A stretch of 61,536 bases of DNA from Catajapyx aquilonaris. Taxonomy: Eukaryota. The notes beneath the pieces were generated by a model. The model saw only the letters and a list, made by a program, of their open reading frames with translations, made no database searches and was not told where the DNA came from. Position numbers and translations under genes: made by a program. The number at the start of each line of letters is the position of its first letter. Positions within the stretch are counted from its first letter, which is position 1. The stretch is from assembly GCA_000934665.2 (NCBI GenBank), contig JYFJ02002200.1:1-61536 (forward strand), written 5' to 3'. Below, one piece after another: positions 22,993 to 53,112 of this stretch.

Positions 22993-23093
22993 ATACAACA
23001 GGGACAGTCTATCTGAAATAGGCAAAAGGTGAGGTTCAGCATGTTATATCTGCTCTGATATTGATGGTCAATTTGTTGCAGTCACCTGTTACC

Positions 23094-28412: not shown

Positions 28413-29702
28413 TTCGAAGGAATTCCATCTATTTGAAAACCATAATTCACCATTTAGAAAAATATAATGTAGGACTGTACAGCCTGTGTCCTGAGGATAT
28501 AAACCATATGTTAAATCCGCATTCAAGGTGAGACCTGCTATAAGCATTATAATTATTGAAGTTCAGTGCCTTCAAAAACATTACAATGCCCAAGGATAAA
28601 TAATAAGTCTCTTTGGGTGAGGCCCCGAGTATGCTGTATTATGTGACTCAATAGGTTTTATTGCAGTTGAAGTAATGATTGAGGCTACTAAAAGGTTTTA
28701 TAATCCCATGAAGAATTGAGTTCGTCGGTCTATGGCTCGGTCTGTGGAGGACTATTAAATTCGATTACCTCACATGGTTACATTCCCCCCCCCCCCCNNN
28801 TCCCCCCCCCCCCCCTGCATACACAAACCTTGAGAATTATTTACTCTATTTTAGAATTTTAAAAAACAACAACACCAACCGCTCCTGCTTTAAGTCCGCC
28901 TAGCTTATTGCCTGGAAAATATTGATATATGTTAATGACTTATAATATGGACATGTTTATTATTTCATACGACTACTGTAATTGCAATTACCCCTATAAC
29001 AGCTGGATAGCACATTAGGATTATGTAATACAGTATTTAACTACAGGAAGATGCTTATAAAAATTACAAGACCTAAACAACTTGAAATTAGGTAGCCTAC
29101 ATCAATAATTTTGTCAGTATACGTAACATAGTTAAAATTAAATGCAAAATAATTCTGAAAAATAATTATGTTGTAATATGTTCTTGAACAATGGAAAAAT
29201 TATCGCCTGGACTCCTGAAAGAAGCAGAAATGGTGTAATAAGAACGTAATCTACATAATGAACTCTGAAGAAGCATTCTTCTTTGTACAAGAGCCATTAA
29301 GCAGATACGAAAGGCATTCCACTGTGAAATCCCACCGATTCAACTGTGGTCAAACAATTTGTCTTGCAAACTGCGATTTCGAGAACAAAATTCCGTCCGT
29401 TATCGTGCAAGCATGCGGACATATTGTGGAACAGCTATTGATATCACAGGAATGTCCGAATTGGTAGCAAAAAGCACGAAATTAGGGGGCGGCGACTAGA
29501 AAAAATCAGCTTAACTATCGCAAGAAGCCAGATATTATGTACTCGGAATAATGGTTTAACACGCATTTGAAATGACGCAATACGCTCTGACCTTTGTTCA
29601 AGAACCGGAGACGACAACTGACAATAGCCTGCACGAGCAGAAAGCTATCGCGGGACCATTAGTGCTTTCAAACCCTTTTGTTTAGGAAATGCACAATGGA
29701 GG

Positions 29703-29720
29703 CATAAAAGCCATAAAAAG
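29703..29720 (+). promoter_or_regulatory. Tandem TATA-like motifs upstream of gene 2
   Basis: CATAAAAG and CATAAAAAG, ~150-165 nt upstream of ATG 29867. Confidence 0.35.
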
Positions 29721-29866
29721 TTGTTTAGTGAGCGCTTAATCTTTGGTGGACGGTTGGGAAGCCAAAGGACTCCCCATCCCACTTCTGCACATTCGGCAAA
29801 GGGCCTTTGACAAGTAGAGAAGGCACCGGTTGACTCTTCTCTGGGTCCATCTGGGCAAGCACCAAG

Positions 29867-32800
29867 ATGGACTGGAGAGCTTTATTGCTCTGTCTCATTA
29901 ACTTCACCTATGGCTTGGTCCACGGAGAAGGTGAGTTATTACCCAATTTTTCTGTCCAATTCAAGTACTTGTTCGAGTGTCCATTTGCATTTTTTAAAAA
30001 GTTTAGGACTCTGACCATTTTTGTGGCTCATGTTCTATTAGTGTCAATTTCAACAGCCATGCTGGTAAAGTTATATTAAAATAATTAGGATTCATTATTC
30101 ACGCGAATTTTACCATGATATTTTCGGAAGGTGTTGCTAGTTCTATGAGGAAGGAAATTGTTGGAGAAAATTCATTATTGCAAGTTAGAATCGCAAAGAA
30201 AATGGCTGGGTATATATTTCATTAGGAAACCTGGGGGTCGTACCGTCATAACCGGTCGTAACTATAGTTAATTATTAGTAACTATGGTTATTACCAGTTA
30301 CGACGAAAATTTAACTTACGACATTGGATGAATCCACCCCCCTGGGGCTCAAGCATGTTCTAAAAGTTAACCGCCCTAGTTAATATTATATCGTAATTTT
30401 GTTCGGTGATAGCAAAGCATTCCAACCATTGTATTGCACCAACCGAAATTACCGATTCGATATGTTCCTAATGGACCGTTAGCAGACCTTTTAACGTGTG
30501 CTAACGAGCTGTTAGGAGCTATTGAATAGGTAATTTCGTTGGTGCCATCCGGCACTAGAATCACAGCAAATAGAGGAGCGGAATTATATGCAGCCTATGT
30601 TAGAATTCCAAGTGGCTCTCTAAAGTAGATTAAGATCATCATTTTTAATGGCGAGTTTTGTTAACTGTGTAGCATAACTAAGAAGTTGCTAACAAAATCC
30701 CGACGATTTTGTTAGTGGGTTCCTTGAAAGTAACTATCCCAACTTTTAAGATTTTTTGTATTAAAAAAAAATGATTATTTATGTATACCCCAATGGGAGA
30801 ATCAGCGCTCTATTAGGGGGGTGGAGTAGGCTACCACCATTGGATGGGGCCAAGGATAGGGAAGGAAGGAAGCGGCTGTGGCCTATTATACGGAAACAAC
30901 CCCGGAATTATCCTGGGGGGACCGTGGAAAACCACAGAATTTTTTTGTATTTATAACGTAACACAATTTTTGTAATAGCAAAAGACCATTTTCTGAAATT
31001 TTATCCACAACGTACATTTTACCAGTTACAGCTGTGCCTAGCAGGGTCCCCTACATGGTTGCCTCCCCCACCCTAACCAGGGTATTGTCTTCACGTAGTC
31101 CTTATGCAATCTAGCTCCAATATGGCCGCCCCATGCTGCAGGATAGGAAATTGGCAAGCAATTCGTTTTTGTTTTTTTCAATTGTTTTTTTTTTCAATGC
31201 ATGTAGCTCCTATGTGAATTAGCTCCAATATGGCGGAGAGACAATACCCTGTCTAGGTGGGGGAGGCACTCATGTAGGTGACCCTGGTGCCTAGTAAATC
31301 GGCTCTAATATGCTCAGCTTTAGAATATGCTGACGTCACGATGGGCAACAATGACTATCAACAATGTAACAATGAAAGCCTTGTGACATCAGTACTATTC
31401 TACGCTAAATGCATAGTATGTGAATAGTTACAACGCGTGTTCTTTAATTTTTGTAACATTGACCAACAAAAATATTACATTCCAGTTTTTGCCTAGCTCC
31501 CCACTAACTGTATGCCAATCCTTGTATTTCAGTGGCCAGGGAAAAGAGGCAAATGCCTTTTGCACTGATGTTCCCTCCGAACCCATGGTTATGGCAACCG
31601 TTCTCAGCACAACATGCTCCCCAGCAACCTATCATGTGGGCCCCTCGCTCAACATACATGCACTCAAACCCTGCCTACGGGTACGGAAATAGGCCTCCGA
31701 CCACCTGGGCTCAACTTAACCCATACGAATATTACGGAGAAGGTAAGACACCTATTCAAAAAAAAAAAAAAAAAACCAATGCAACGTCAACACATTTCAC
31801 CTGCAGATTACAATTTCGACGGACCAAATCCATTTTCGGACAGCGATAATTCATCTCCAAAGAATTTTGACGACGTTGATATCTCCAAGTATGCGACAGC
31901 ACGTAAGCTGGCCAAAGACGAGATGTGGTATGTGGAAAATCCCAAGCAGGTGTCTCAATTCAACTCGAAGGGAGATGCGAATATAGACAATGGTAGGCCG
32001 AAATTGTATATATTTGTAGTGTCAGGTATGCATGTTTTTCATATTGACAACTTTATTTTGGGCAGGCATCACGGGGAGAAACAAGAGGAAATTGGCAGCT
32101 ACAAAGGCCGCTGAAGATGGTAATTGAGTGTTGCATGGTGAAATTTTATTGCTTTGTAATATTATTTCTTTGCAGCAAAACTGCAGTCCAAGAAGCAGAT
32201 CTGGCCCAAGAGTAAGGACGAAGACAAGGACGAAGACAAGGACATAAGCCAACCTAAGGAGAAGGTTTTGAGCCGGAAAAAGCGTACGTATCATTATCTC
32301 AGTTTTAGATAAAAATTAATAAAGCATTATATAATTAGATGAAGCTGATATTTTGGGACACTTGGCATTATATTTAAAAATACAGGGTGTTCCAATTTCG
32401 GGGGCCACTTCTTGATAACTGATATCGCCTGATAGCAGTTATTTTTTGTAACTTGTTGTGCCCCTAACCGTGTGCCCCATTATACTATAACTACTGCTAT
32501 ATTCGATCCACTGTGGGCCGAATATAGCAGTAGTTATAGAATGGGGCACATGCTTAGGGGCACAACAAGTTACAAAAAAATTACTGCTATCAGGCGATAT
32601 CAGTTATCAAAAAGTGAGCCCCGAACTTGGAACACCCTGTACCGTATATTCTGTAACTTGAATATCCGAAAATTTTGTACACTGCCAATGTATTAGCTAA
32701 GGCGATTTGCATGATAATCTGCTGATTTTAATTTACGTTACTATTCTTTGCTGCAGGTATCATTAGTGGACTGTTAGGAGGTGGTGGTGGTGGTAAGTAA

Positions 32801-35800
32801 ACGTTACTTTTACTAAAATAATACGTTTTTGTAACAGTCTCAAATAATGGTATTTGCGTAAAATGACCACAGAATCACAAATCTCTAAGCAAAATTGCAA
32901 AAATATTGCAAGATTCCAGCATGTCAGTCACCGATACCACCGATATTTTGCTGATGGCTTATTGCAATTTACGAAAATGCATAATCAGCTCCTAAATCTG
33001 TGATTAATTTAAAGGTGGACCCGGTGCTATTCTGGGAAGCCTTCTTGGAGGTGGAGGCGGAGGAATACCGATTGGTAAGCACTATTTTCCTCAATTCATG
33101 CCGCCTACCTATATTTACTATTGGGCTAATAATGTGTTGTGGTTTCAGTTGGCGACATGCTATCAGGATTTCTTGGTGGAGCAGGTGGAGGTTTGCCGTT
33201 AGGTAAGCACTACGCAGTAAATGTTGTCGGCAAGGAATTAACAATTACTGTCATTTTAGGTGGTGACTTCTTAGCTGGACTTCTTGGTGGAGGCGGAGGC
33301 GGAATCCCAATAGGTCAGTGATGAGTTGTGAAGTTGATTGTAGAAAAAGAAGCATATTAACTAGATATGTGTTTTTTTCTTAAATTTCAGCTGGCGACTT
33401 GCTATCAGGATTGATTGGCGCAGGAAGTCCAACTGCAGGACTGCCAATAGGTTTGTAATGTCTTCTGATAAGCCTAAATATTGGTTTTGACATTTGGTTT
33501 TGCTTTTGCAGTTGGAGATTTCCTGAGTCGTCTTGCCCCCGGAGGTGGAGGAGGAGGAGGAGGAGGAGGAGGAGGTTTAGGAGGTTTAGGAGGTTTTCCC
33601 ATTGGTACGTGTCTCTCTAACAAAGAACGTACAAAAATGCGTATCACTTGCTTGAAAATGTATGTCTCTTTTCTTTCAGTGGGCGATTTATTCGGCGGAT
33701 TATTTGGAGGTGGTGCAAAAGGTAAAGATTATATTTCTTCCAAAATGTCAAGCTTGAAAGTAACAATATGTAAACTGTAAACTACTACACATGTCATATA
33801 CTTCAGCTGCTGCAGCTGTAGCAGCAGCAGTTCCTAGTGCCGGAAACCAAGCTCAGCAGCTGTTCTCACTGTTGGCAGCAGCTAAAGCCAGAGACCAAGG
33901 ACATGCACAACAGCAAGGACAGCAACAGTTGCTGCAGCAATTTCAAGACCAGCAGCGACAACAACAGCAAATGCAAATGCAGATGAACCCGGCTGAAATG
34001 CGACCGCCGCCTGCACATAATATGATGTATGGAGGTGGTGGCGATGGCACAGCCAACCAGAAGGGTAAGGGGGACGAGCAGTTTGAAGGTCATAGTGTAG
34101 ATAGGATACCGATAAACGACATAGTGTAACAAACATAAAACTTAACATAGCCACAAATTTGTGCTCAACCAAACTCTGCTACTTCGAATATGCTACTGCT
34201 GCACCAAGGCTGCCATTCAAGGGAAATGGGATGCGACAAATACAATTTGGCTTAGTCATTTGGCAACAGAAGCCAAGTCAACAGTATCAGTCTTATACAA
34301 GGATTGGCGCAAGTTGACATTTAGGGGTAATATAAATTCATATACAGTCAGGTATATTTTTCGTACGGCTACCAATACGACTTACAGTTAGATCATTTGA
34401 TGCATTTCAAGAGTGCTGCTCATATCAGAGAAGCTCTTCATGCTGTAAATTGTATTTCCAAAAGTCACGATGGTAGAATAGGGTTTCTCGAGATTATAAT
34501 GTGAACGAGATGCTTTTATGGCTCTCAAGAAGAGTCTGACGAAGTGAGCATGATATTCGAGAGCAGAGGCAAGTTTCTACCATCCTTCTTCACTCATCAA
34601 AACATATTGGCAAGGATGGGAATGTGAATCGGAGCGATAGCAGTTTCGGAAGAGGTTAGTCATTCTTTTTAGACTACCAAAGAGTTCTGTCATTTACCTT
34701 TGTTTCAATACTCTTCGGTAATAATATTCTGACGTAGGCATCAATGTGGGCACCATTTGCTACAGTGGCTTCGGACACATCTCAAATAATGCCACGTGTG
34801 AATTTTGTAGGCAATCCTTCAGAACGGAAGGTGGCAGCAATAGTGGCATCGAAACATTTCTCAACGCATGATAGTTGCTCTTCAATCATTTCCCTTTACA
34901 TTTGTTACGTTTTGTATCATCGATTAGGTAAGATTTTCGCCATATAATGGTTATTTTCCATAAATAGCATTACTGCTGTCTTCGGGGATTTTGTTCTAAT
35001 TCAGCAACTTCACATTATTATGGTACGATAAAAACCACGACAATAAAGTAACATGAATTCTCAGCGTGTCACTGTCATATCAGAACAATATATTGATAAG
35101 CATCTCAGTAGTGAAATTAGTTGCCTATATACTGTTGCAGTAGGGGAGACGGAGTGGTGCTGCGGTAACGTATGCGCCCACGGATGTTAAGGTCCCGGGT
35201 TCGATCCCAACCCGGGGACACCCCCTTCATCTCGTGCAGAGTTCAGGGTCACCTCTGGCTTTGTCTCGGGTGGTATTTCCACAGACTAAACCACCCGGGG
35301 GAGTTCACTAAAAATGGCCACCACGTCAGATGCACTGCACTTGCACATCCCCTCCTGCCATCCTGCCCGTGGGCCCGGGCGCTTCTCAATGGCTCCAACT
35401 TGTACACTATGTAGGATCAAATAATAAAGGTCCGTTCCGAACGCCGAAAGGTGAAGCACTACCCCCACAATTATTTAATTATTTATTTATACTGTTGCAG
35501 TTACTTTTGCAGTAACAGTTATTGCATTAAATGTAGCTTGAACAAGCTGATTACTAATATTCTACCATTCGATCCTTTCCAATGGTACAAAAAAACTTTA
35601 TAATATTTCATTTCACTTATTGCAGCTAAGAGAAGTATCGACTCAGACAACCAGACTACCAACAAGGATACTCCGGATGAAACAGAACAACCAGAACAAC
35701 CAGAACAACCAGAACAACCAGAACAACCAGAACCAACCAGTTAGTATTTGTGCTTTGGATTTGCAGATACATTGAAATGACTACCATTGTCTATTTGTGT

Positions 35801-37354
35801 TGCAGGTGAGAAACCTGAAGAAGTAGCCACCAAGCATGACGATGCACAGGAATCCAAAGGTAAAGATGGGACCTGTTGATAGCCATACGCACACAAACCT
35901 AAAATATGTTAACGTAAATCACAACGTATTATTGACATGAAGTTGTGTTGTTGTTTTTTTGCATTACTTTAATCTGAAATTGCAAAACTTGCAAGTTATA
36001 AACTGTTGCCATCTATTGCAGAAACAATACACCAAGTGCCAAAGAAGTATCTTCTTCTCTTGAATAAAATCTTGAAGGCAAAAAACCAAGGTAGGTTGGG
36101 TAGTTTGATAATAATTAGGATAAGTGCACTCTCCTAATTGACTGGGTAAAAACGATCCTTTATTGACAGTTGCTCAAATCAATCTCATTGAGACATAAGA
36201 GTGTTTATTATCCCATATTTACAGCAGTTGATCCATCACCTGAAGTTCAAAAAAAATGTCTTTGAAATTTATAATATATTGGAATTGAGAGCAAATGTCA
36301 GTTTTTCGTCACGTGATTTTGGTGGGTGCAGAGAAATTTCGTACCGAATTATAACACCATGTTTATTCGACTCATTTAGAATTCAAGCAAAACTTTGGAC
36401 TCATGAGTGATCAACAAAGTGCTGCACCAAGTCCATTTATGGCTCCCTACTCACCCAGGAACTACTATTTCAATCCAACCCTAGATTATCCAGTGATATA
36501 TCAGGTTCCTCAGTTTGACGTTTACGACACACGTGATTCTATCACTCCCGGTAGGTCACTTTCTACCTGGAAAAATGACATTCTCATATATTCACTTTCC
36601 CCAGGTTATGCTGCTCCAGTTGAATTTGACACGATCCACCATGGCGCAGATAATAATTACTATGGTACAAAGTTATTGTTATGGATTTGGTGCAACTTGA
36701 ATTTAACAATTGTTTCTCCTCCTTAGGCGTAGATGTCAAGCAACAAAAGCGAAACATCGCTATAGCACATGATCTAACTGACATGAGACCTCCACTGCCT
36801 TCGGTGAAAGCAGAAGGACGACTGATTGATGCGCCTCGTAAGCACACCTTGGGATGGAGAAGTCCGATAACTGGACACCGCGAAGTAGATCTAGAGGAAT
36901 ACATGGAGACGCCTGCTGATTACCAGAAGCAAGCTTTGTCGTCGCTGAGTAAGTACTTGGCTCATCTGAAACAGAAAAAGAATTACTAATGTCGTATATA
37001 ATATTGAACTTGGAGCAAAAAGCACATCTGACGTTTCATTTTTGGGTACAGCTCCCGGAGCAGATACGTTGCTGTTGACAAATAGCGACGATTTGTAACA
37101 TTTGACACTGGAAATCGTAGCAATTTCACTTAAAAAATCATTCCGTCACTACAATATCTACTGCAGTTACAGATAACCGCAACTGGATGTGTCCCAGGAT
37201 AGCACAAGCGAAACGATGGTGTTCGTGGTCCCAGCAGTCGTGCAGCCGTGACATCGACTGCGAAGATAACCAACGATGCTGTCTGTTGCCATGCGGATGG
37301 AAATGCGTTACTCAGGCCAGCCCACCAACAATAGGCACGAATTTCATTAAGTAG
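29867..37354 (+). CDS. N-terminal part of gene 2 (or a stand-alone ~716-aa isoform): signal, Pro/Tyr/Trp-rich, Gly/Leu repeats, Gln-rich, EQP repeat, one WAP
   Basis: Twenty in-frame exons linked by phase-1 introns, with REKR, RNKR, RKKR, KAKR, QQKR sites. The WAP exon starting at 37173 reads on to TAG at 37352-37354; AATAAA follows at 37475 and 37533. Confidence 0.7.
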
Positions 37355-43300: not shown

Positions 43301-46300
43301 AAGAACTCTATTCTGGAAAAGGCAGCGATGAAGAAACTGGAGGAAAAGTCAGCGATGAAGAAACTGAAAGCAAAGGCATCGGCGAAGAAACTGGAGGAAA
43401 AGTCAGCGATGAAGAAGCTGAAAGCAAAGGCATCGGTGAAGAAACTGGAGGAAAAGTCAGCGATGAAGAAGCTGAAAGCAAAGGCATCGGTGAAGAAACT
43501 GGAGGAAAAGTCAGCGATGAAGAAACTGAAAGCAAAGCCATCGGTGAAGAAACTGGAGGAAAAGCCTCATTGAATTCCGAAGGCACAGAAGAGATGGGAA
43601 GGGGCATCGTCAAAAGCAGAAAGAAACCATCCAAAGATGACGATGAAGAGCCATCTGATGAGGACATATCAAAGGACGGTAGTGAATCCCCTGGAATTAG
43701 TGACACGAGTGACATAGAAAGTGAAGCTAAGAAGCCAAGCAAGAAACCAAAGGTGAAAAAATGCCAACTGTGGTAAAATAATAATTTAAAAATTAATAAC
43801 ATAACAAAAAGTCTAAAACTTATTATATTACAGGAAGAATCTGAATCTGACGAGTCTACGGATAAGTTGACACCAAAAACGAAAGGCCCAAGGGGCAGTG
43901 AAGAGAGTTCAGAAGAGCCAAATGCAGACATGGACGACTCCGAAGCTATTATAGGAGGGGAAAAACTTCCGATATATGGAGAAGGCGAGCGCAAAAAACC
44001 AGGAGAAACAAGGTATGATGACACAAGAGTCGAAGATTTGGAATACGAAGAAAGGGAATCGTCCACTGAAGGAAAACGAAAGAAACCTGAGAAAAAACCA
44101 GAACAAGAAAAGAAACAGGAGAAAAAGATTGGGAAAAAACCGACTTCTGAGAATGGTCAGAAACCCACTGAGGGAGACGATTGCTCTGATATCACCATGG
44201 AATCCCTTGACAAATTGAATGAAAGTCCGGAAGAGAGTGGTGTACAGCAAGGTAGTGATGGATACAAAAAGGAGAAAATAGTCACCAGTGGTGATGAGGA
44301 CGCAGACGTTTCTGAGCAAGGTCCAGGAAGGCAAAAATCAGCAGACAAGTCTCCTCCAAATAAAGAATCTGCTTTGGACGAATGTGATGAATACGAGTTC
44401 ACCCTGCCAAGCCAAGAAGATGCTTCTGAAACTGCATCACCCGAAGAAAGCAAAAGTCCAGAAATTGAAATTCCCAAATCAACACCAGTCACCAGTAGCA
44501 ATGAGGACGCGGATGTTTCCGAGCAAGGTCAAGGAATGAAAAAACCAGCAGGCACGTCTCCTCCAAATAAAGAATCTACTTTGGACGAATGTGATGAATA
44601 CGAGTTCACCCTGCCAAGCCAAGAAGATGCTTCTGAAACTGCATCACCCGAAGAAAGCAAAAGTTCAGAAATTGAAGTCACCAGTAGCAATAAGGACGCG
44701 GAAGTTTCCGAGCAAGGTCGAGGAATGAAAAAACCAGCAGGCAAGTCTCCTCCAAATAAAGAATCTACTTTGGACGAATGTGATGAATACGATTTCACCC
44801 TGCCAAGCCAAAAAGATTCTTCTGAAGCTGCAACTCCAGAAGAAAGCAAAAGTTCAGAAATTGAAATTCCCAAGTCAACACCAGTCACCAGTAGCAAGGA
44901 GGACTCAGATGTTTCCGAGCAAGGTCGAGGAATGAAAAAACCAGCAAGAAAGTTTCCTCCAAAAAAAGAATCGACAAACGAGGACACGACAGATGAGGAT
45001 GATGAGGATGATACACTTGAATGTGAAGAAAGTGGTACCGAATCTGAAGAAACTGACGAAAAATCCGATAAGAGTGAAGAATGTTTAGAAGACACATTTG
45101 ACGAAACACCCTCTTCTGAGAGCACGGAGAGTGATGCCAGTGAATACTGTGACAGTGAAGAAGACAGCAATGGAATAGAAAGTTCTGAACAAAAACCATC
45201 ATTTGAATCAGGTGCTAGCGACGGGGAAGGTGCCAAAAATTCTGAGGAATGTTCGGAAGAGGCTGACTCTGGAGCTAAAAAGCAACCTAACACAGGAGAA
45301 AGTGTGTCTGAAGGAGATCAAGAAACAGACGATGGCGGGAGGACACCATCTGATTCAGGAGATGACTCTGAAAAAGATTCTGGGGGTTCTCAGGAATGTT
45401 CCGATGAAGCCAAAGAAACCGCGCGCGGTAGGGTTTTAGGAAACCAGCCTCCTAAAAGCGTTGGTGAGGACGAGTCCGATGATGATTGTAAGAGTGAAGG
45501 CGATACAGATGACAAAGGCGGGGATAAATCAGAATCAGCACAGACAACAGAAAATAAGTCAGATAGTGGTGTAAAAAGTACCGACAATTCGGAGGATTTG
45601 GCGGAAGACAACGAAACGAAACCTTCCAAGGGTGTCAAAGAAAGTGCGGATGAAGAGGATTGTGAGAGTACAGATGACCAAAAAGGTGCTGATAAATCAA
45701 AACCTACAGACACAACAGAAAACAGTGCAGCTGCAGGTTCAAGCGGTGGTTCTACAGAGGAATGTTCCGAAGAAGAAGAAAGTAGTTCAGCCAACGAGTC
45801 AGAAGATGCTTCAACTAAACCTGATGTACCAAAGAAGGGAGGAGACAAATCAAAAACCCCAAAGGATACAAAGAAAGAATCAACAGGTTCAGATGGTGAC
45901 GGACAAGGAGGTACAAGTGATACCGAAGAATGTTCCGAAGAAAAAGACACTGGTTTAGAAGGAAAACCACCAGAAAGTGGAACAGCAAGTGATTATGATG
46001 CAGATTGCAAGAGTGGAGCCGCTGAATCAGGCCAAGAAGAAGAAAAAACGCCAATAACAGAGACAACTGAAAATAAATCATCTGAAGAAGGTGAACTTGA
46101 TAGGGAAAAAGGCAGATCAAAAGACAAAAAGGGAGGTACTAGTGACTTGGATGAATGCTCTGAAGAAAAAGGCACAGGTGATGACGCAGAAGGTGATTCC
46201 AATGCAGATTCTGGGAGGGAAGGCGAGAAACCGGGTGAAAAGGGAGATAAATCAAGAAAAGAGGACACAGAAGAAGACAAGTCATCTGCAGGCAAAAGTG

Positions 46301-49300
46301 CGAGCCAACTCGACGAATGTTCCGAGGAAGATGTCACTGGTTCTGGCACAAAACCTTCAAAGAGCACCGAAGGAAGTGAAATTGATGAAGATTGTGACAA
46401 TGATGATGATAAACCTGATATGAGCGGAGATAAAAAGGGCAGTTCTGGAGAAAAAGCATCTGGAAGCATAGCTGAAAATGGTTCTGATGAGGATAAATCA
46501 GATAAGAGTGGAACGGGTTCAAAACCATCCGAGACAACTGGAACAAAGTCAACTGCAGGTTCAAGCGGTGGTTCTACAGAGGAATGTTCGGATGAAGAGG
46601 AACCTAGCTCTGATGATAAATCTCCGAAGAGTGCTGTGGAAAATGGCTCTGATGAAGACTGCAAGAGTGGAGACGAGTCAGGACCGGCAGAAACCGCTGA
46701 AACTAAAGAAGGTGGCAACAAGGAAACTGGTAGGGCTTTGGAAAAGGCCACCAGTTCCGCAGAAAAAGGATCTAAGAGCGAAGCAAGAAGTGGATCTGAT
46801 GAGGATTGCAAAAGCGATGCCGATAAATCAGATACGAGTGGCAATGGTCCAAAATCATCCGAGACCCCTGAATCAAAGTCAACTGCAGGTTCAAGCGGTG
46901 GAGACCAGGGGAGCAGTAGTTCTTCAGAGGAATGTTCGGATGAAGAGGAACCTAGCTCTGATGATAAATCTCCGAAGAGTGTTGCGGAAAATGGCTCCGA
47001 TGAAGACTGCAAGAGTGGAGACGAGTCAGGACCGGGAGATACCGCTGAAACTAAAGAAGGTGGCAACAAGGAAACTGGTAGGGCTTTGGAAAAGGCCACC
47101 AGTTCCGCAGAAAAAGGAACTAAGAGCGAGGCAAGAAGTGGATCTGATGAGGACTGCAAAAGCGATGCCGATAAATCAGATACGAGTGGCAATGGTCCAA
47201 AATCATCCGAGACCCCTGAATCAAAGTCAACTGCAGGTTCAAGCGGTGGAGACCAGGGGAGCAGTAGCTCTTCAGAGGAATGTTCGGATGAAGAGGAATC
47301 TGGCTCTGCAGATAAATCTCCCAAGAGTGTTGCGGAAAGTGCTGGCTCTGATGAAGACTGCAAGAGTGATGGCTCTAAACCAGGGGATGGCGGGAACGAG
47401 TCAGGACCGGGAGATACCGCTGAAACTAAAGAAGGTGGCAACAAGGAAACTGGTAGGGCTTTGGAAAAGGCGACCAGTTCCGCTGAAAAGGGATCTAAGA
47501 GCGAAGCAAGAAGTGGATCTGATGAGGATTGCAAAAGTGACGCCGATAAATCAGATACGAGTGGAAAAGGTCCAAAATCATCCGAGACCCCTGGCGAGCA
47601 AGAGAGCGGTAGTGCTTCAGAGGAATGTTCAGATGAAGAGAAATCTGGCTCTGCAGATAAATCTCCCAAGAGTGTTGCGGAAAGTGCTGGCTCTGATGAA
47701 GACTGCAAGAGTGATGGCTCTAAACCAGGGGATGGCGGGAACAAGTCAGGACCGGCAGAAACCGCTGACACTAAAGAAGACAGTGAAAGTGCTAGTGTTC
47801 CTGAAAAGGGAACTCGTTTAGGAGAAAAAGCACCTGGAAACATAGCTGGAAGTGGTTCTGATGAGGATTGCAAAAGCGATGTTGATAAATCAGATAAGAG
47901 TGGAACACCGAGCTTAAAATCATCCGAGACCCCTGAAAGCAAGTCAACGGAAGGTGCAAGCAGTGGCGAGCAAGAGAGCGGCAGTGCTTCAGAGGAATGT
48001 TCAGATGAAGAGGAATCTGGTTCTGCAGATAAATCTCCCAAGAGTGTTGCGGAAAGTGCTGGCTCTGATGAAGACTGCAAGAGTGATGCCGATAAGTCGG
48101 ACACCACTGAAACCAAGTCGACAGCAGGTGCGACAAGCGGTGGCAAGCAGGAGAGTGGCAGTGTATCAGAGGAATGTTCGGATGAAGAGGAACCTAGCTC
48201 TGCTGATAAATCTCCCAAGAGTGCTGCGGAAAATGGCTCTGATGAAGACTGCAAGAGTGATGGCTCTAAACCAGGGGATGGCGGAGACGAGTCGGGACCG
48301 GGAGATACCGCTGAAACTAAAGAAGGTGGCAACAAGGAAACTGGTAGGGCTTTGGAAAAGGCCACCAGTTCCGCAGAAAAAGGATCTAAGAGCGAAGTAA
48401 GAAGTGGATCTGATGAGGATTGCAAAAGTGACGCCGATAAATCAGATACGAGTGGAAAAGGTACAAAATCATCCGAGACCGCTGAAAGCAAGTCAACGGA
48501 AGGTGCAAGGAGTGGCGAGCAAGAAAGCGGTAGTGCTTCAGAGGAATGTTCAGATGAAGAGGAATCTGGCTCTGCAGATAAATCTCCCAAGAGTGTTGCG
48601 GAAAGTGCTGGCTCTGATGAAGACTGCAAGAGTGATGTCTCTATACCAGGGCTGGACGGAGAGGAATCAAAACCGTCAGACACCACTGAATCCAAGCCAC
48701 CAGGTACTTCTAGCGGCGGTGATCAGGGCAGCGGTGGTGATGCTGATGAATGTTCGAATGAAAGTGACACTAGTTCTCCAGTAAAATCTGCGAAGAGTGT
48801 GACAGAAAGTGGTTCTGACGAAGACTGTGAAAGTGATGTCGATAATTCAAAAAAGGAAGGCGACGAATCAAAACCGCCTGAAAAACCAGGAAACGCGGGC
48901 AGTGACGAGAAGGTAACTAGTTCAGGAGAAAAAGCCTCTGGAAGTGGTTCTGAAGAAGATTGCGAGAGTGATGTCGACAAATCAGATAAGAGCGGAGAAG
49001 AATCAGAACCATCAGCGACAACTGAAATCAAGTCACCAGATGGTTCAAATGGTGGTGACAATGGCAGTAGTACTGGTTCTGAGGAATGTTACGATGAAGA
49101 GAAAACCAGTTCTGCAGAAATGACTTCGACGTCAGGCAGTGGTTCTGATGAGAGTTGCAACAGCGATCTCGACAATGCTGACAAAGCCGGGGACAAATCG
49201 AAACCGCCAAAGAGTTTTGAAACCAAGTCACCGGGAAGTGCGAACAATGATTACGAGAATCCCGATGAAGATGAATCTATATCATCTCCAAAATCTGCGA

Positions 49301-52300
49301 AATCTGAAACAGAAAGTGAGGATCGTTCCTGCTCTGATTTTGATGTGAATATCTCCGTTGGGGATGAAGAGGGTCGTAAAATGTCTGCCAAAAGCCCGGT
49401 TACTAAAGGTAAAGAAAAACCACAAGATGAAGTAACTGACTCTTCACCAAATCCTAAGGACACATCAAAGAAAGGCAAGAAGATCAAGGACCCAAAGAAA
49501 AATAATGTCACCATGACCATGGACGTAACTGTAACTGTGAATCTTACCATGGCCGGAAATATTAATAAGCATTATGCTACTGATCCTAATGATACAAATC
49601 CATCAGGAACAAAGTTGCCTGATGGATCAGAAGAAAATGACGGAAAAAGTTCTTCAAAAAATAAGCGTCCTTTTTTAGGCGATGATAAGCAGAATTTCGT
49701 ACCAGAAGGAGGAGGAAAGAAGAAAAACAAGACTAGTATTGATAAAGATAGTCTTCCAAAAAACGGGGTTAGTGCTGAAGTGTCAAGCAGGGGAGATGAC
49801 ACTTCAGCAGAAACCTGTGATGATGAAAATGAGACACCGAGTATAGGCAGTGATGAAAATGCGTCTACCTTTCCTGTAGTTTTCAAAGACTCTCCTGGTA
49901 CACCTGAGGAGTTGTCTAAGGAAGATGGACTGAAAGAATATTCGAAAGAAGACAAGAAAGACGGGACTGCGGACAAAGGTAAAGAATCTGAGTGTGAATC
50001 AGATGAAAGCAGACGTTATCCAGATGGAAATTTTCCTAATATAAAAAATCCTGAAACGAAGGGAACTAAAGAAAGCAGTGACGAGGAAACATCTGATGAA
50101 TTCACAGGGGTGCACAAAACCTTGAATGATACAACCAGCAATGAAAAGAAAACGGAAGAAGATGACAACTCGGAACCTGATGAACAAGAGACAGTTATCT
50201 CAAAAGAATGTGAGAACTGTCCAAAGGGGGAAAAAGATGAAAGTGGGAACACAGAAGGAGAAGACGGAAAACAAAGTGGCAACAACCCTGATAAAAGCAG
50301 TCAAGAAATAAGTGGAGCAAAAAGTAAGGAGCCTGATAAGCCAGAAATAGACGGAGAAAATAAAACAGATGGTACCGATAAAGATACCAGTGAAGGATCT
50401 GAGTACTGTAGTGAAGGAACAGATGAAAGTGGAGCAGATGAGTCAGGAACCGATAGACAGAATAAGACAACTAGTGACGATAGCAAAACTAGCGATGGAT
50501 CTGAGTCCTGCAGTGAAGGAACAGATGAAAGTGGAGCAGATGAGTCAGGAACCGATGGACAGAATAAGACAACTAGTGACGATAGCAAAACCAGCGATGG
50601 ATCTGAGTACTGCAGTGAAGGAACAGATGAAAGTGGAGCAGATGAGTCAGGAACCGAGGGACAGAATAAGACAACTAGTGACGATAGCATAAATAGCGAG
50701 GGATCTGAATATTGCAGTGAGGACACAAATGAAAGTGGAGCAATCAGCCAGGGGGCTGATCAATCAGGAACAGATGGACAGAATAAGACAGCTAGTGGCG
50801 AAAACGACAATGGTGGAGGATCGGAAAAATGCAGTGAAGAAAAAAATGAAAGTGGAGAAAAAAACAAAGGGGACACTGAATCAGAAGCCGGTGAGCCGGA
50901 GGAAATAAAGACTGACGATATCTTCGAAAATGGAAACTCAGATGATTGTAATGAAGAAACTGATGGAAGTGGGGCAAAAAGTAAAAATGATGAATTAGGT
51001 TCAGAAGGGCGAAATGAAACAAGTAGTGAGGGCTCGGAATCTTGCAGTGAAGAAACAGGCGAAAGTGGAGATGAATTAGGTTCCCAAGGTCGAAATGAAA
51101 CAAGTAGTGAAGGCTCGGAATATTGCAGTGAAGAAACAGGTGAAAGTGGAGATGAATTAGGTTCCCAAGGTCGAAATGACACAAGTAGTGAGGGGTCTGA
51201 ATATTGCAGTGAAGAAACAGGTGAAAGTGGAGATGAATTAGATTCCCAAGGGCGAAATGAAACAAGTAGTGAGGGGTCTGAATATTGTAGTGAAGAAACT
51301 GATGAATCAGGAACCGATAGACAGAATAAGACTAGTAGCGAAAGCGACACCAGTGAGGGCTCTGAATACTGCAGCGAAGAGTCGGAAGAAAAGGAAAATA
51401 TAACTTCTTCATCGATAGAATCGACTACAGTGACCACTGAGGTAGCCACTGAGTTAAGTACTAGCCCAGAACCAGAAACCACAACTTCTGGTGCAGATGG
51501 CACAAGTACAACAATCTTCTCCAGCACTGAAAGTGGCACTTCAGAAACAGACCACACGACTGATGAAACTACCACCTTGCCAGACACTGGAATTACAGAG
51601 TCAGAAACAGACCACATGACGGATGAAACTACCGCCTTGCCAGAGTCAGAATCAGGTGAACAAAGTTCACTTTCCAGTATGGGGCTCGAAACTAGAATGA
51701 CAAACTTAGAAAGTGAAGAGACAACTATTAAAAGCACTCCCCCGCCAATCACGGAAAGTACAACTCCACAAACAGCAGTGCCAAACACAGTGGAGGCAAC
51801 TTCAGGGGCCACTCCAAGCACGACTACACCCAATCCGAGAACTAATGAAGTAGTACCACGCCCAAGAGCCAAAAGTTAGTACTATTGAAACACGTTTCAT
51901 CATTTTTTGTTCCTTGGGCATGAAAGTAATAATGATCTAGCTTTCTCTCTATTAATATAATTATTTTCTAAGATTGACGCAAATACTGTACCAGAGAGTT
52001 ATTTACCACATGGGAACGTTTCATGTAGAATATAACCTATCTATTTTGCTGTTACATCTATCCTGTTTGGTCACAACTAATGGTCAGTTTTTCGTCATAC
52101 TTTTCACTATTGCAACACTAATAGTATCTTAACAATTATTATGTAATGTAGGTAATTCCAGGACAAATTAGGGAGTGTATACAACGCTGAATTTTTTTAT
52201 TTCCATGAAAATTATTTTTCGGAATTGCCATTGTAAAAGTAGGAGACTAATGCCAGATTCCACCAACCGCTTTTACTGTAAGTTAAGAGCTATCTGTCAT

Positions 52301-53004
52301 TTAGCGCCCAAATTAACACACGTATAGGAGTGAGCAGTTTGCTGCCTATGACAGGGGCGTGGTATACGAAAAAAATTTATTTGATACCTTCAGGCATTTG
52401 TTGAGTTACAATTAAGACAGCAATAAAAACACTTTAAGTAAATAATAATTTAGCAATTTTGAAGATAATACGGTATTGCTTCAATAATAATATACCTTCC
52501 TGTGACAACATTGCTAATCGATTATTATTATGGAGTTTGCTTATGCTCGTCAAAATATTCAGTGTCATGGTCACGGCAGACTGTATTCTCATTGGCAGAA
52601 TCTCGTAGTGTACGAATTTTATTGGATTTATTATCATATTTTTCGATAATAATCCAATAATACTAGAATTAATTTTTAAGGTACTAAAGTACTTGGGGCC
52701 CTTGGACCTGTGACGTTTTGTCTAGGCATAGAAAATGTACAATAAATTTATTAAGATAGATATACAGTATTTTCAAGTTGTAATCTTCATGCATGAAGCC
52801 ACCAAATTGTGTTATAAAATGCTTTCGTAATAAATACCAATGCATATTATAGAAAAGCGCTGTCCACCCCCTCCACCGAGAGGACCGCTGAACCCGTGCC
52901 TGAAAACGAAGGACGAATGTACTACTACATCAGAGAAACCGTGTCCTGAAGACAAGATGTGTTGCCCCTGGAAGTGTCGTATGGAGTGCAAAACACCTCG
53001 CTAA
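29867..53004 (+). CDS. Giant secreted multidomain polyprotein (~4,520 aa; 9 WAP, 4 half-VWC-like, Gly-rich, Gln-rich, acidic Cys-spaced domain)
   Basis: 44 exons joined in frame: 29867-29930, 31533-31742, 31807-31992, 32066-32119, 32176-32283, 32757-32792, 33015-33074, 33149-33202, 33260-33313, 33391-33450, 33512-33604, 33680-33721, 33807-34064, 35626-35739, 35806-35859, 36022-36090, 36380-36550, 36605-36664, 36727-36948, 37173-37334, 37622-37711, 38476-38607, 38664-38807, 38867-39103, 39159-39252, 39315-39370, 39428-40015, 40077-40229, 40291-40323, 40456-40644, 40701-40751, 40813-41001, 41234-41290, 41351-41515, 41589-41624, 42154-42315, 42587-42667, 42728-42781, 42842-43009, 43063-43104, 43171-43227, 43283-43752, 43834-51874, 52853-53004 (13572 nt by my sum). 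Signal peptide MDWRALLLCLINFTYGLVHG. The model needs GC donors at 37335 and 43010; the single-gene join at 37335-37621 is the weakest link. Confidence 0.6.
31042..31286. mobile_element. hAT-type MITE in intron 1 of gene 2
   Basis: TIR CAGGGTCCCCTACATG / CATGTAGGTGACCCTG; perfect 8-bp TSD GTGCCTAG. Confidence 0.85.
32383..32639. mobile_element. Tc1/mariner-type palindromic MITE
   Basis: TA|CAGGGTGTTCCAA ... TTGGAACACCCTG|TA with long inverted arms. Confidence 0.9.
32757..33721 (+). CDS. Seven micro-exons, each encoding one Gly/Leu-rich repeat
   Basis: RIISGLLGGGGG / GGPGAILGSLLGGGGGGIPI / VGDMLSGFLGGAGGGLPL / GGDFLAGLLGGGGGGIPI / AGDLLSGLIGAGSPTAGLPI / VGDFLSRLAPG(12)LGGLGGFPI / VGDLFGGLFGGGAK. 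All are symmetric phase-1 exons of 36-93 nt. Confidence 0.8.
35142..35487 (+). mobile_element. Full-length tRNA-derived SINE
   Basis: A box (GTGGTGCTGCGG), B box (GGTTCGATCCC), (ATTT)n tail, 14-bp TSD TATACTGTTGCAGT at 35128-35141 and 35488-35501. Confidence 0.85.
38476..39103 (+). CDS. Four 6-Cys modules resembling the C-terminal half of VWC domains
   Basis: Examples: CEMVPCEMPLELEEDCPIVTHPGQCCAFKTC and CSDALCGPSPGPDCTMENIPGQCCPKYTC. The CxxxxC...C...PGxCCPxxxC pattern matches the VWC C-terminal subdomain. Confidence 0.65.
39159..43009 (+). CDS. Array of seven WAP (four-disulfide core) domains with linker micro-exons
   Basis: The eight-Cys pattern CP..C..C-x5-C..CC-x3-CG-x2-C occurs in exons 39159-39370 (split; CCFDGCGRVCKDP), 40077-40229, 40456-40644, 40813-41001, 41351-41515, 42154-42315 and 42842-43009. 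Confidence 0.85.
39428..40015 (+). CDS. Lys/Asp/Gly-rich charged repeat exon (GGKDKDKDGK)n
   Basis: 588-nt phase-1 exon inside ORF 39412-40119: KFKR site, Lys-rich run, 21-30 bp tandem repeats, then an acidic Gly/Ser tail. Confidence 0.8.
41039..41202. mobile_element. Degenerate MITE
   Basis: AGTCCGTTAAACCAAAGAACGATCTGACGTCAC / GTGACGTCAGAGCGTTCTATCGTTTAAAGGACT imperfect TIRs; TA flanks. Confidence 0.55.
43834..51874 (+). CDS. 8-kb exon encoding an acidic Ser/Glu/Asp/Gly/Lys-rich repetitive domain with periodic Cys and a Thr-rich tail
   Basis: Uninterrupted 2670-aa ORF (43867-51879). Acceptor CAG at 43833 is in frame; donor A|GTTAGT at 51875 is phase-compatible with the terminal WAP exon. 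Confidence 0.9.
52853..53004 (+). CDS. Terminal WAP-domain exon
   Basis: TAG|AA AAG CGC TGT... encodes KKRCPPPPPRGPLNPCLKTKDECTTTSEKPCPEDKMCCPWKCRMECKTPR* (8 Cys, WAP-like spacing). AATAAA at ~53498. Confidence 0.8.
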
Positions 53005-53053: not shown

Positions 53054-53108
<55 letters not shown>

Positions 53109-53112
53109 TTTC
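53054..53112. repeat. (ATTT)n microsatellite in the 3'UTR of gene 2
   Basis: ~14 ATTT units. Confidence 0.95.

What the first reader, a model, noticed from the sequence alone, without database searches (positions are those of the whole stretch)
29867..53004. Hidden ~4,500-aa secreted polyprotein that reads like a complete self-protecting biomaterial kit
Seen: 44 frame-compatible exons, almost all symmetric phase 1, link a signal peptide to chemically distinct blocks (Pro/Tyr/Trp-rich, Gly/Leu repeats, Gln-rich, EQP, half-VWC x4, WAP x9, Lys/Asp/Gly, ~2,700-aa acidic Cys-spaced chain, Thr-rich stalk). Convertase motifs sit at block boundaries: REKR 31538, RNKR 32077, RKK|R 32274, K|AKR, RVTR 37681, KFKR, RKKR 40733, VSKR, RAK|KKR. 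Established: furin cleaves R-x-[K/R]-R; WAP domains act as protease inhibitors or antimicrobials. Partial precedents are abalone Lustrin A (modular matrix protein with a C-terminal WAP), type II crustins (Gly-rich plus WAP) and trappin/semenogelin genes of the mammalian WFDC locus. I know no protein with this full architecture. Inference: one precursor releases stoichiometric parts of a glue, silk, spermatophore/plug, egg coat or mineral matrix, together with its own protease or microbe protection.
Basis: partly seen in the sequence, partly recalled or inferred. Interest (0 to 1): 0.88.

Follow-up and report, generated by a model that had tools for sequence, protein, structure and literature searches.

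The report
Two WAP-ending secreted matrix genes
The supposed single 4,500-residue secreted polyprotein is mainly a 718-residue secreted precursor that ends at its own stop and polyA signal, followed by a separate giant acidic coding unit rich in WAP domains whose start is unknown.

Summary
I rebuilt 40 frame-compatible exons, nearly all phase 1-1, with canonical splice sites.

Spliced contigs of run X5 show GT..AG joints that are absent from DNA run X1. They confirm 9 introns of the first block. They then run unspliced through WAP#1, through the in-frame stop at 37352-37354, and end at 37555, 17 nt after an AATAAA.

So exons 1-20 form a complete gene, A, of 718 aa. It has a signal peptide, low-complexity blocks and a C-terminal WAP. 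Its 3 strict furin motifs were matched by 0 of 2000 shuffles.

The other 20 exons (37622-53004, about 3,750 codons) form unit B:
- four half-VWC modules
- eight WAP-type modules
- a Lys/Asp/Gly block
- an 8,041-nt acidic exon with spaced Cys
- a Thr-rich stalk

B has no furin-motif excess. I found no signal-peptide exon of its own, so it is either a second gene or a rare long isoform.

No close relatives were found. Verdict: lineage-specific modular matrix proteins in the manner of Lustrin A. The one-chain "kit" is not the main product.

The parts
29867..29930 (+). Gene A exon 1. It codes the signal peptide MDWRALLLCLINFTYGLVHG|E, and its donor is in phase 1. The 5'UTR runs upstream past 29800. 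TATA-like CATAAAAG motifs lie at 29703-29720.
   Evidence: The length and bin depth of X5 record 9 fit about 166 nt ending at 29930 (inference).
31533..32283 (+). Gene A exons 2-5. They code a short pro-piece ending in REKR (31538-31549), a Pro/Tyr/Trp-rich block, an acidic block, RNKR (32077-32088), and a Lys/Asp block ending in RKK|R (32274-32758).
   Evidence: X5 record 9 joins 31531-31740 to 31805-31991.
32757..33721 (+). Gene A exons 6-12. Seven small phase 1-1 exons each code one Gly/Leu unit of the type GDxLxGLLGG(G)nIPI.
   Evidence: The X5 joint 33719>33805 leaves the last of these exons. The others rest on the length of record 9 (inference).
33807..34064 (+). Gene A exon 13, an Ala/Gln-rich block. 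Its end, together with exon 14, forms K|AKR.
   Evidence: X5 record 10 covers 33805-34063 and carries the joints 33719>33805 and 34063>35625.
35626..36948 (+). Gene A exons 14-19 (35626-35739, 35806-35859, 36022-36090, 36380-36550, 36605-36664, 36727-36948). They code EQP repeats and Tyr/Pro-rich acidic blocks.
   Evidence: X5 joints 35739>35806, 35857>36020, 36088>36378, 36549>36604, 36663>36726 and 36948>37167. All are GT..AG and none is seen in DNA run X1.
37167..37555 (+). Gene A terminal exon. It holds WAP#1 (Cys signature at 37190-37306), the stop TAG at 37352-37354 and the 3'UTR, with AATAAA at 37475 and 37533. The transcript contig ends at 37555.
   Evidence: Pfam WAP 30.8 bits. X5 record 12 is collinear with the genome over 37167-37555.
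37622..37711 (+). Unit B candidate first exon (GREGYQMRHNSYPYPQHHHRVTRDVAEVT). It is phase 1-1, has a strong acceptor and donor, and has no transcript evidence.
38476..39103 (+). Unit B, three exons (38476-38607, 38664-38807, 38867-39103) coding four 6-Cys modules of the form C-x4-C-x7-9-C-x8-10-CC-x4-C. They resemble the C-terminal half of VWC repeats.
   Evidence: The closest matches are VWC-repeat proteins. Pfam VWC itself gives no hit.
39159..39370 (+). Unit B WAP#2, split by a phase-2 intron into 39159-39252 and 39315-39370.
   Evidence: The 8-Cys signature appears only in the joined model. The first half alone has no Pfam hit.
39428..40015 (+). Unit B Lys/Asp/Gly exon of 196 aa, with 21- to 42-nt tandem repeats. 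It contains KFKR at 39559.
40077..43009 (+). Unit B WAP#3-#8, one exon each (40077-40229, 40456-40644, 40813-41001, 41351-41515, 42154-42315, 42842-43009). Small linker exons lie at 40701-40751 (with RKKR), 41234-41290 and 42728-42781. The last WAP exon needs a GC donor.
   Evidence: Pfam WAP 26.8-30.7 bits for five of them and 19.7-20.1 bits for 41351. The six are 31-46% identical to each other.
43171..43752 (+). Unit B linker exon 43171-43227 and Glu/Gly/Lys/Ser repeat exon 43283-43752, the latter with a 54-nt repeat in 4.6 copies. A phase-0 intron follows at 43753-43833.
   Evidence: X5 record 13 covers 43564-43750 at depth 2.4, and the bin depths fit a spliced continuation into 43834+ (inference).
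43834..51874 (+). Unit B giant exon of 8,041 nt. The first 2,522 aa are acidic (Ser 18, Glu 16, Asp 11, Gly 11, Lys 10 %) with 57 Cys spaced 20-80 aa apart in DEDCKSD, SEECSDE and SEYCSEE contexts. From 51400 there is a 158-aa Thr-rich stalk. If the donor at 51874 is not used, the frame stops at 51877-51879.
   Evidence: There is no Pfam hit.
52853..53004 (+). Unit B last exon. It codes (K)KR followed by a Pro-rich, WAP-like 8-Cys module (#9), then the stop TAA at 53002-53004.
   Evidence: Pfam WAP scores 15.7 bits, E 0.018, below the cut-off.

Best explanation
The + strand of 29.8-53.0 kb of this metazoan window holds two consecutive coding units, each ending in a WAP exon that carries its own stop. 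It does not hold one obligatory polyprotein.

Gene A (about 29765-37555, 20 exons, 718 aa) is the product supported by transcript evidence.
- It has a signal peptide and a 7-residue pro-piece ending in REKR.
- Four compositionally distinct low-complexity blocks follow, separated by RNKR, RKKR and KAKR. The last block ends in a WAP domain.
- I infer that it is secreted and cut by furin-type convertases into about four pieces: an aromatic/Pro-rich piece starting with Gln, a 47-aa Lys/Asp peptide, a 221-aa Gly/Leu/Ala/Gln-rich piece, and a 289-aa acidic Tyr/Pro-rich piece carrying the WAP.

Unit B (37622 or 38476 to 53004, about 3,750 codons) codes a giant acidic protein (pI about 4.4). It has four half-VWC modules, eight WAP-type modules, a basic Lys/Asp/Gly block, a 2,522-aa Ser/Glu/Asp-rich region with regularly spaced single Cys, and a Thr-rich stalk.

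I infer that both are extracellular matrix components (of a mineralised layer, coat or mucus). In this reading:
- acidic S-x-E-rich stretches bind cations;
- single Cys residues cross-link chains;
- WAP modules inhibit proteases or bind crystal faces.

Shown: the exon structure, the domains, the splicing and 3' end of gene A, and the motif excess in A.
Inferred: secretion, cleavage, and the matrix role.
Open: how B gets a signal peptide.
For: Splicing of gene A:
- X5 contigs carry 8 listed GT..AG joints, with 0 contigs of DNA run X1 showing them. One more junction appears in record 9. All nine lie at my predicted exon borders.
- Record 12 (1,001 nt) goes from the 36948>37167 joint unspliced to 37555. 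That path crosses the stop at 37352-37354. AATAAA lies at 37533.
- No usable phase-1 GT donor follows WAP#1.

Gene models:
- Both models are open. Splice sites are 39 of 39 AG acceptors, and 37 GT plus 1 GC among 38 donors.
- The signal peptide has a hydrophobic core and a small residue at -1.

Furin motifs:
- A has 3 against 0.10 expected, matched by 0 of 2000 shuffles. B has 1 against 0.27 expected, P 0.24.
- The motifs in A lie 0.7-7.7 residues from exon junctions.

Domains and composition:
- WAP by Pfam and by Cys signature.
- Half-VWC likeness.
- All tandem-repeat periods in the coding parts are multiples of 3.
- Composition and Cys spacing.
- WAP#1 is only 24-31% identical to the other WAPs, whereas WAP#3-#8 are 31-46% identical to each other.

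Precedents read as passages in papers:
- Pif-177 is cut at a furin site (RMKR) into Pif-97 and Pif-80 (PMC3091754).
- WAP domains occur in the nacre proteins lustrin A and perlwapin, and perlwapin inhibits crystal growth (PMC5854119; PMC6003135).
Against: - X5 is not recorded as RNA (kind '?'). I call it RNA-like only because of its GT..AG joints.
- It is a single data set of contigs, which cannot prove a 3' end or exclude rare isoforms. The joint table was cut, with 16 joints not shown.
- Ten of gene A's 19 introns rest on contig length and bin-depth arithmetic, not on listed joints.
- Unit B begins with a strong phase-1 acceptor only 66 nt after A's presumed polyA site.
- None of the 14 ATGs in 37556-38475 opens a signal-peptide-like exon. 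This fits one gene with two 3' ends as well as it fits two genes.
- One GC donor is needed in B.
- No relatives, tissue or organism are known, so the matrix role rests on composition and domain analogy only.
Confidence: 0.7

Rival explanations
1. There is one gene with two 3' ends. Most transcripts stop in the WAP#1 exon, which acts as a composite terminal exon. Some instead use the weak GC donor at 37334, or skip that exon from the donor at 36948, and continue through 37622 to 53004. That would give a chain of about 4,450 aa sharing the signal peptide and N-terminal blocks of gene A.
For: - Every exon end of A and the first acceptors of B are in phase 1, so any such join keeps the frame.
- B has no signal-peptide exon of its own in 37556-38475.
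- The acceptor at 37622 is among the strongest in the locus and lies 66 nt after A's presumed polyA site.
- A GC donor sits in phase 1 at 37334, at about the same place after the last Cys as the donors of the other WAP exons.
- A small X5 contig shows that B is transcribed in the same data set.
Against: - The only listed joint leaving 36948 goes to 37167, and that contig then ignores the GC site.
- WAP#1 carries its own stop and two AATAAA signals.
- WAP#1 is an outlier among the WAPs.
- B ends in the same 'WAP exon with stop' form as A, as two paralogous genes would.
- Furin motifs are not enriched in B, so the 'cleavage at every block' picture fails there.
Confidence: 0.3
2. Gene A and unit B are host-defence or mucosal proteins (antimicrobial or antiprotease, crustin-like and SLPI-like), not structural matrix parts. 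The Gly-rich and WAP parts would act on microbes or their proteases.
For: - Gene A has a hydrophobic Gly-rich repeat domain and a C-terminal WAP, as type II crustins do (crustin review PMC9680087, passages).
- Arrays of WAP modules are typical of antiproteases. Weak pairwise matches to elafin and nawaprin were found (E 0.11 and 0.64).
Against: - Gene A lacks the 4-Cys domain of the 12-Cys crustin signature. It has 9 Cys in all: 8 in the WAP and 1 in the signal peptide.
- Gene A is 718 aa and acidic (pI 5.9), and the piece carrying the WAP has pI 5.1. Crustins are described as cationic peptides (abstract of PMC7401287 in the listing).
- 2,522 aa of acidic sequence with spaced Cys has no parallel in those families.
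Confidence: 0.2
3. Unit B is a decaying or non-translated remnant, a former gene that lost its first exon, and only gene A is functional.
For: No start with a signal peptide was found. One non-canonical GC donor is needed.
Against: - An 8.1-kb frame stays open in a 41-48% GC sequence.
- All 20 exons are open in compatible phases.
- The repeat periods are all multiples of 3.
- A contig of X5 lies on 43564-43750.
Confidence: 0.05

Closest known systems
Lustrin A (abalone nacre matrix protein)
   Same: Both are large, secreted, modular proteins that alternate Cys-rich modules with low-complexity Pro-, Gly- or Ser-rich and basic blocks, and end in a WAP-type module. Both A and B end this way. Passages read: 'large multi-domain protein', 'Cys_repeats, C/P' (PMC6003135), and WAP domain in lustrin A (PMC5854119). 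The full domain list of Lustrin A is recalled from memory, not read.
   Different: Here there are eight WAP modules in B instead of one, half-VWC modules instead of Lustrin's Cys domains, and a 2,522-aa acidic region with spaced Cys that Lustrin lacks (recall).
Pif-177 (pearl oyster), a matrix precursor cut at a furin site
   Same: Both are secreted acidic matrix precursors with a consensus R-x-K-R site between functionally distinct halves. Pif-177 is cut at RMKR into Pif-97 and Pif-80 (PMC3091754, passages).
   Different: Pif has VWA and chitin-binding domains. None was seen in the ORFs scanned here. Gene A has three strict sites and one loose site rather than one. Cleavage of gene A has not been shown.
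Type II crustins (crustacean WAP antimicrobial peptides)
   Same: The order signal peptide, hydrophobic Gly-rich repeat domain, C-terminal single WAP is shared (PMC9680087). Gene A's Gly/Leu block is 31% Gly.
   Different: The 12-Cys crustin signature is not met, because the 4-Cys domain is absent. In gene A about 320 residues of other blocks lie between the Gly/Leu repeats (which end about residue 345) and the WAP (residue 665). Gene A is several times longer and is acidic.
Perlwapin and multi-WAP antiproteases (SLPI, elafin)
   Same: All have tandem WAP four-disulfide-core modules in a secreted protein. Perlwapin is an abundant nacre protein that inhibits crystal growth (PMC6003135).
   Different: Those proteins consist of one to three WAPs and little else (recall). 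In B the WAPs make up under 10% of a 3,750-aa chain. Pairwise similarity to solved WAPs is weak (E 0.11).
VWC-repeat proteins (kielin/chordin-like; hits P0002, P0007, P0009)
   Same: The 6-Cys modules at 38476-39103 match the '...C..PGQCCP.Y.C' C-terminal half of each VWC unit. P0002 scores E 3e-36 over 42 stretches, and BLASTP against P0007 gives 46-56% identity over 16-26 residues.
   Different: The N-terminal half of the VWC unit is missing, and Pfam VWC does not match even at E 10. These are therefore VWC-derived half modules, not VWC domains.

Membership tests
WAP four-disulfide core (Pfam PF00095) | Profile match at or above the gathering score of 20.8 bits | tested here: met
   6 of 9 modules score 26.8-30.8 bits. 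One scores 19.7-20.1 bits and the last exon 15.7 bits, both below the cut-off. The split module could not be scanned as a whole.
WAP four-disulfide core (Pfam PF00095) | Eight Cys spaced as C-Xn-C-Xn-C-X5-C-X5-CC-X3-5-C-X3-4-C | tested here: met
   9 of 9 modules match a relaxed pattern in the models. In the six-frame control, 8 unsplit matches all lie on the + strand within 37190-52989 and none lies elsewhere. Module 9 has 8 residues, not 5, between C3 and C4.
VWC domain (Pfam PF00093) | Full 10-Cys domain recognised by the profile | tested here: not met
   No VWC hit for the three exons at E up to 10. Only the C-terminal half resembles VWC units.
Crustins type I/II | 12-Cys crustin signature: a 4-Cys domain directly before the 8-Cys WAP | tested here: not met
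   Gene A has 9 Cys: 8 in the WAP and 1 in the signal peptide. The definition is from PMC9680087.
Crustins type I/II | N-terminal hydrophobic Gly-rich repeat domain of 20-160 residues | tested here: inconclusive
   Seven Gly/Leu units of about 135 aa are present. They are internal and lie far from the WAP.
Convertase-processed polyprotein precursor | R-x-[KR]-R sites in excess of chance and placed between distinct blocks | tested here: met
   Met for gene A only: 3 against 0.10 expected, matched by 0 of 2000 shuffles. The sites lie 0.7-7.7 residues from exon junctions. Not met for B: 1 against 0.27 expected.
Convertase-processed polyprotein precursor | Cleavage products observed | not testable with these tools
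   This needs N-terminal proteomics of the secretion.
Lustrin A-like matrix proteins | Sequence homology to Lustrin A outside the WAP | not tested
   No Lustrin A sequence was available. The searches that were run returned no close relative of any kind.
   Nine junctions of gene A are seen. At WAP#1 the contig continues unspliced through the stop to 37555. Junctions of B could not be seen, except that one is inferred at 43752>43834.

The most novel reading that the evidence does not exclude
The locus is a switch. One promoter and one signal-peptide exon serve two very different secreted products through alternative 3' processing at a composite WAP exon. One product is an abundant 718-aa furin-cut precursor. 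The other is a rare giant of about 4,450 aa, in which the same N-terminal blocks are fused to four half-VWC modules, eight WAPs and a 2,500-aa acidic cross-linkable chain. Unit B, which has no signal peptide of its own, would depend wholly on gene A for secretion.
Probability: 0.3. Interest if true: 0.6.

Novelty: new variant of a known kind. Interest (0 to 1): 0.4.

Why it matters
If the reading holds, the locus gives two lineage-specific secreted matrix proteins with clear, testable parts.
- Gene A is a multi-site convertase precursor in the manner of Pif-177, but with four blocks.
- Unit B is a giant acidic chain with regularly spaced single cysteines and the largest WAP array I met in these searches.

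Such proteins are the raw material of shells, coats and glues. They are usually missed or mis-merged by gene finders because they are repetitive and have no relatives.

The practical lesson for the scan is that chains of phase-1 exons can be joined in frame across gene borders. Frame compatibility alone does not define a gene. The unresolved start of unit B is a concrete question for a long-read cDNA experiment.

Tried and rejected
Sequencing runs
- no RNA holder listed. There were four DNA runs of one sample, plus X5 of unknown kind holding 6% of the sampled words.
- X5 has no cover over 37994-43295. I record this here only and do not use it as evidence of silence.

Homology searches that found nothing
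- Giant exon, proteins of 1,473-4,689 aa: 7,997 candidates scored, none at E 0.001 or better.
- Gene A exon 19, longer proteins: 22 candidates, none.
- WAP#4 exon, longer proteins: no candidate.
- Representative library with the double half-VWC exon: 8 hits, none a close relative. Three (P0002, P0007, P0009) carry Pfam VWC. P0003 and P0004 look like translated repeats. P0006 has bacterial cadherin-like and Ig-like domains, and P0005 and P0008 match only DUF7743 below its cut-off.
- ESM Atlas with 1,000 aa of the acidic exon: best score 0.80, unnamed, at chance level.
- ESM Atlas with the neighbouring NXF exon: no useful taxon.
- PDB sequence search: only weak WAP matches, and none for the half-VWC exon.
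- Pfam: nothing on the giant ORF or on the low-complexity exons of A.
- Rfam on the whole window: nothing.

Search for a start of unit B
- I looked for a second signal-peptide exon. The ORFs starting at 37510 and 37597 read through the 37622 acceptor, but their hydrophobic cores are too short.
- SP-like ORFs at 32032 and 33791 are translations of polypyrimidine tracts just before acceptors, so I rejected them.

Other
- Small candidate exons at 35415-35450, 40234-40323, 41589-41624 and 43051-43104 were left out of the models. The first is skipped by the X5 joint 34063>35625. The others have no support.
- My first model of B had three off-by-one exon borders and 10 stops. It was corrected.
- The organism could not be named.
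- Structure prediction was not run. Single Cys-rich exons without an alignment were judged unlikely to give a usable model.

Full report
**What is in the sequence**

The window is eukaryotic, with 39-48% GC. On the + strand between 29.8 and 53.0 kb there is a dense series of short open segments, each bounded by a polypyrimidine-AG acceptor and a GTAAGT-like donor.

From these I built two models (borders and scores):
- 20 exons from ATG 29867 to the stop at 37352-37354, coding 718 aa;
- 20 exons from 37622 to the stop at 53002-53004, coding 3,749 codons in an open frame.

All 39 acceptors are AG. Of 38 donors, 37 are GT and one is GC (at 43009). Most introns are 54-85 nt long.

Nearly all exons are phase 1-1. 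The exceptions are:
- a phase-2 intron that splits one WAP domain (39253-39314);
- a phase-0 intron of 81 nt (43753-43833), which removes the single in-frame stop between the two long ORFs.

The phase bias is not chance. Strong phase 1-1 candidates number 27 on the + strand and 3 on the - strand of 29930-43800. They number 7 and 6 in the 29.8-kb upstream flank.

**Domains**

Pfam finds WAP in single exons at 37121-, 40052-, 40344-, 40803-, 42117- and 42820-, scoring 26.8-30.8 bits against a cut-off of 20.8. The exon at 41335- falls just below, at 19.7-20.1 bits. The last exon (52853-53004) scores 15.7 bits, E 0.018.

A ninth WAP is split over 39159-39252 and 39315-39370. It was recognised only by its eight-Cys pattern.

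In a six-frame scan of the whole window that pattern occurs 8 times. All are on the + strand inside 37190-52989.

Three exons at 38476-39103 code four 6-Cys modules. Pfam VWC does not match them. A search of 1.84 billion representatives with the double module found VWC-repeat proteins as its best hits. P0002 is 4,619 aa and scores E 3e-36 over 42 stretches; its Pfam domains are VWC and TILa. The match is to the "PGQCCPxYxC" end of each VWC unit. "Half-VWC" is therefore a fair label, but these are not VWC domains.

The giant exon (43834-51874) has no Pfam match. Its first 2,522 aa are Ser 18, Glu 16, Asp 11, Gly 11 and Lys 10 %, with pI 4.2. They carry 57 Cys at spacings of mostly 25-65 residues, in DEDCKSD, SEECSDE and SEYCSEE contexts, and 115 S-x-E motifs. 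A 158-aa stretch with 27% Thr follows.

All tandem-repeat periods in the coding parts are multiples of three: 9, 21, 27, 30, 42, 54, 81, 102, 117, 189, 207 and 348 nt.

**Transcript evidence**

No run on record as RNA holds the stretch. One run of unknown kind, X5, held 6% of the sampled words, so I laid it together with DNA run X1 on 29800-44250.

X5 contigs carry eight listed GT..AG joints that no X1 contig shows: 33719>33805, 34063>35625, 35739>35806, 35857>36020, 36088>36378, 36549>36604, 36663>36726 and 36948>37167. Record 9 joins 31531-31740 to 31805-31991. All nine fall on my predicted exon borders. X5 therefore behaves as spliced RNA.

The lengths of the contigs fit the remaining exons:
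- Record 9 (1,052 nt) breaks down as 166 nt of exon 1 with its 5'UTR, 210 nt, 187 nt, and 489 nt that equals exons 4-10 plus the start of exon 11. It ends in the Gly-codon repeat.
- The bin depths for 29800-30281 and 32692-33173 match this arithmetic.

This part is inference, because the tables were cut.

The decisive piece is record 12 (1,001 nt). After the 36948>37167 joint it is collinear with the genome from 37167 to 37555. That stretch contains WAP#1, the in-frame TAG at 37352-37354, and AATAAA at 37475 and 37533. The contig ends 17 nt after the second signal.

No GT donor in phase 1 exists after the WAP domain. The only candidate is TAG|GCACGA at 37334.

Exons 1-20 are therefore a complete gene, gene A. 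TATA-like motifs lie at 29703-29720.

**Gene A**

The 718-aa product begins with a signal peptide (hydrophobic core ALLLCLINFTYGLV, with HG before the likely cut). The rest of the chain follows in order:
- EVAREKR;
- a 134-aa Pro/Tyr/Trp/Asn-rich and acidic block ending in RNKR;
- a 47-aa Lys/Asp block ending in RKKR;
- a 221-aa block of seven exon-sized Gly/Leu units plus an Ala/Gln-rich exon, ending in KAKR;
- a 289-aa acidic Tyr/Pro-rich block with EQP repeats, ending in the WAP.

Strict R-x-[KR]-R motifs number 3 against 0.10 expected, and 0 of 2,000 shuffles reached 3. All three lie within 8 residues of an exon junction.

Processing by furin-type convertases into about four pieces is therefore a reasonable inference. 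Pif-177 is a documented precedent in a matrix protein: it is cut at RMKR into Pif-97 and Pif-80 (passages of PMC3091754).

Gene A resembles a type II crustin in the order Gly-rich domain then C-terminal WAP. It fails the 12-Cys crustin signature, and it is long and acidic (PMC9680087).

**Unit B**

From 37622 or 38476 onward the exons code:
- a short Tyr/Pro/His piece;
- the four half-VWC modules;
- the split WAP;
- a 196-aa Lys/Asp/Gly exon;
- six WAP exons that are 31-46% identical to each other, with small linker exons;
- Glu/Gly/Lys repeats;
- the giant acidic exon with the Thr-rich stalk;
- after a 978-nt intron, a Pro-rich WAP-like exon with the stop.

If the donor at 51874 is not used, the frame ends two codons later.

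Furin motifs are not enriched in B: 1 against 0.27 expected.

One small X5 contig (244 nt) lies on 43564-43750. The bin depths (0.93 and 0.29) fit 187 + 57 nt, that is, a spliced continuation into the giant exon (inference). B is therefore transcribed.

**The open point: how B starts**

Between 37556 and 38475 there are 14 ATGs. None opens a signal-peptide-like exon. The ORFs from 37510 or 37597 that read into the 37622 exon have very short hydrophobic cores.

The 37622 exon has one of the best acceptors of the locus, and it lies only 66 nt after gene A's presumed polyA site. All exon ends of A are in phase 1.

Two readings remain:
- B is a second gene whose first exon I cannot recognise.
- B is reached from gene A's promoter by skipping the WAP#1 exon or splicing out of it.

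Points for two genes: both units end in the same "WAP exon with stop" form, and WAP#1 is an outlier at 24-31% identity to the others. Points for one gene: the missing signal peptide and the strong acceptor.

I cannot decide between them with the tools at hand. I put about 0.3 on a long isoform that carries gene A's blocks.

**Function**

No relatives were found in any search. The organism and tissue are unknown, so function rests on anatomy.

Both products are secreted-type, modular and mostly disordered.
- Gene A combines aromatic/Pro-rich, Gly/Leu-rich and Gln-rich blocks of the kind reported in shell and cuticle matrices.
- B combines an acidic, S-x-E-rich, Cys-spaced chain with a mucin-like stalk and many WAP modules.

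WAP domains are known both as protease inhibitors and, in perlwapin and lustrin A, as parts of nacre. Perlwapin inhibits crystal growth (passages of PMC5854119 and PMC6003135).

I therefore favour extracellular matrix components of a mineralised layer, coat or mucus (about 0.6) over immune effectors (about 0.2).

**Verdict**

The interpretation as one hidden 4,500-aa polyprotein is not supported for the main transcript. Convertase processing is supported by motif statistics for the first gene only.

These are new, lineage-specific variants of the Lustrin-like class of modular matrix proteins ending in a WAP. They are interesting chiefly for the unusual acidic giant and for the unresolved link between the two units.

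Noticed in passing
window 56212-61198, - strand: A gene like nuclear RNA export factor (NXF/TAP) lies here. Pfam finds Tap-RNA_bind, LRR_NXF1-5 and TAP_C. The ORF at 56212-56712 holds two TAP_C copies in tandem in one open frame.
   Followed up: partly
window 30764-31245 and 35102-35583 (introns 1 and 13 of gene A): These are very high-copy repeats. DNA run X1 has word depth about 44,000 and 168,000 against a baseline of about 30. X5 depth there is 540 and 4,288, so the repeat family also appears in the RNA-like run.
   Followed up: no
window 34503-35085: An unspliced X5 contig of 583 nt (depth 6.7) lies inside intron 13 of gene A. It could be a retained intron, pre-mRNA or an independent transcript.
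   Followed up: no
window 23022-23312, + strand: An ORF with a signal-peptide-like start (MKWICLLLGACALVCGVMG) is followed by an acidic, Cys-rich stretch. It has no Pfam match. It may be another small secreted gene upstream of the locus.
   Followed up: partly
window 53054-53111: A (TTTA)14 microsatellite begins 50 nt after the last stop codon of unit B. No AATAAA follows the stop within 400 nt.
   Followed up: no
window 45993-48722, - strand: A 909-aa antisense ORF and several other long ORFs in wrong frames lie across the giant exon. They are by-products of the purine-rich repeats (AT skew up to 0.39), not genes.
   Followed up: partly
window 1278, 6034, 8435, 15551, 19621, 28798-28800: Isolated N positions occur here. 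In the translations, several fall in runs of Gly or Pro codons. None lies inside the finding.
   Followed up: no
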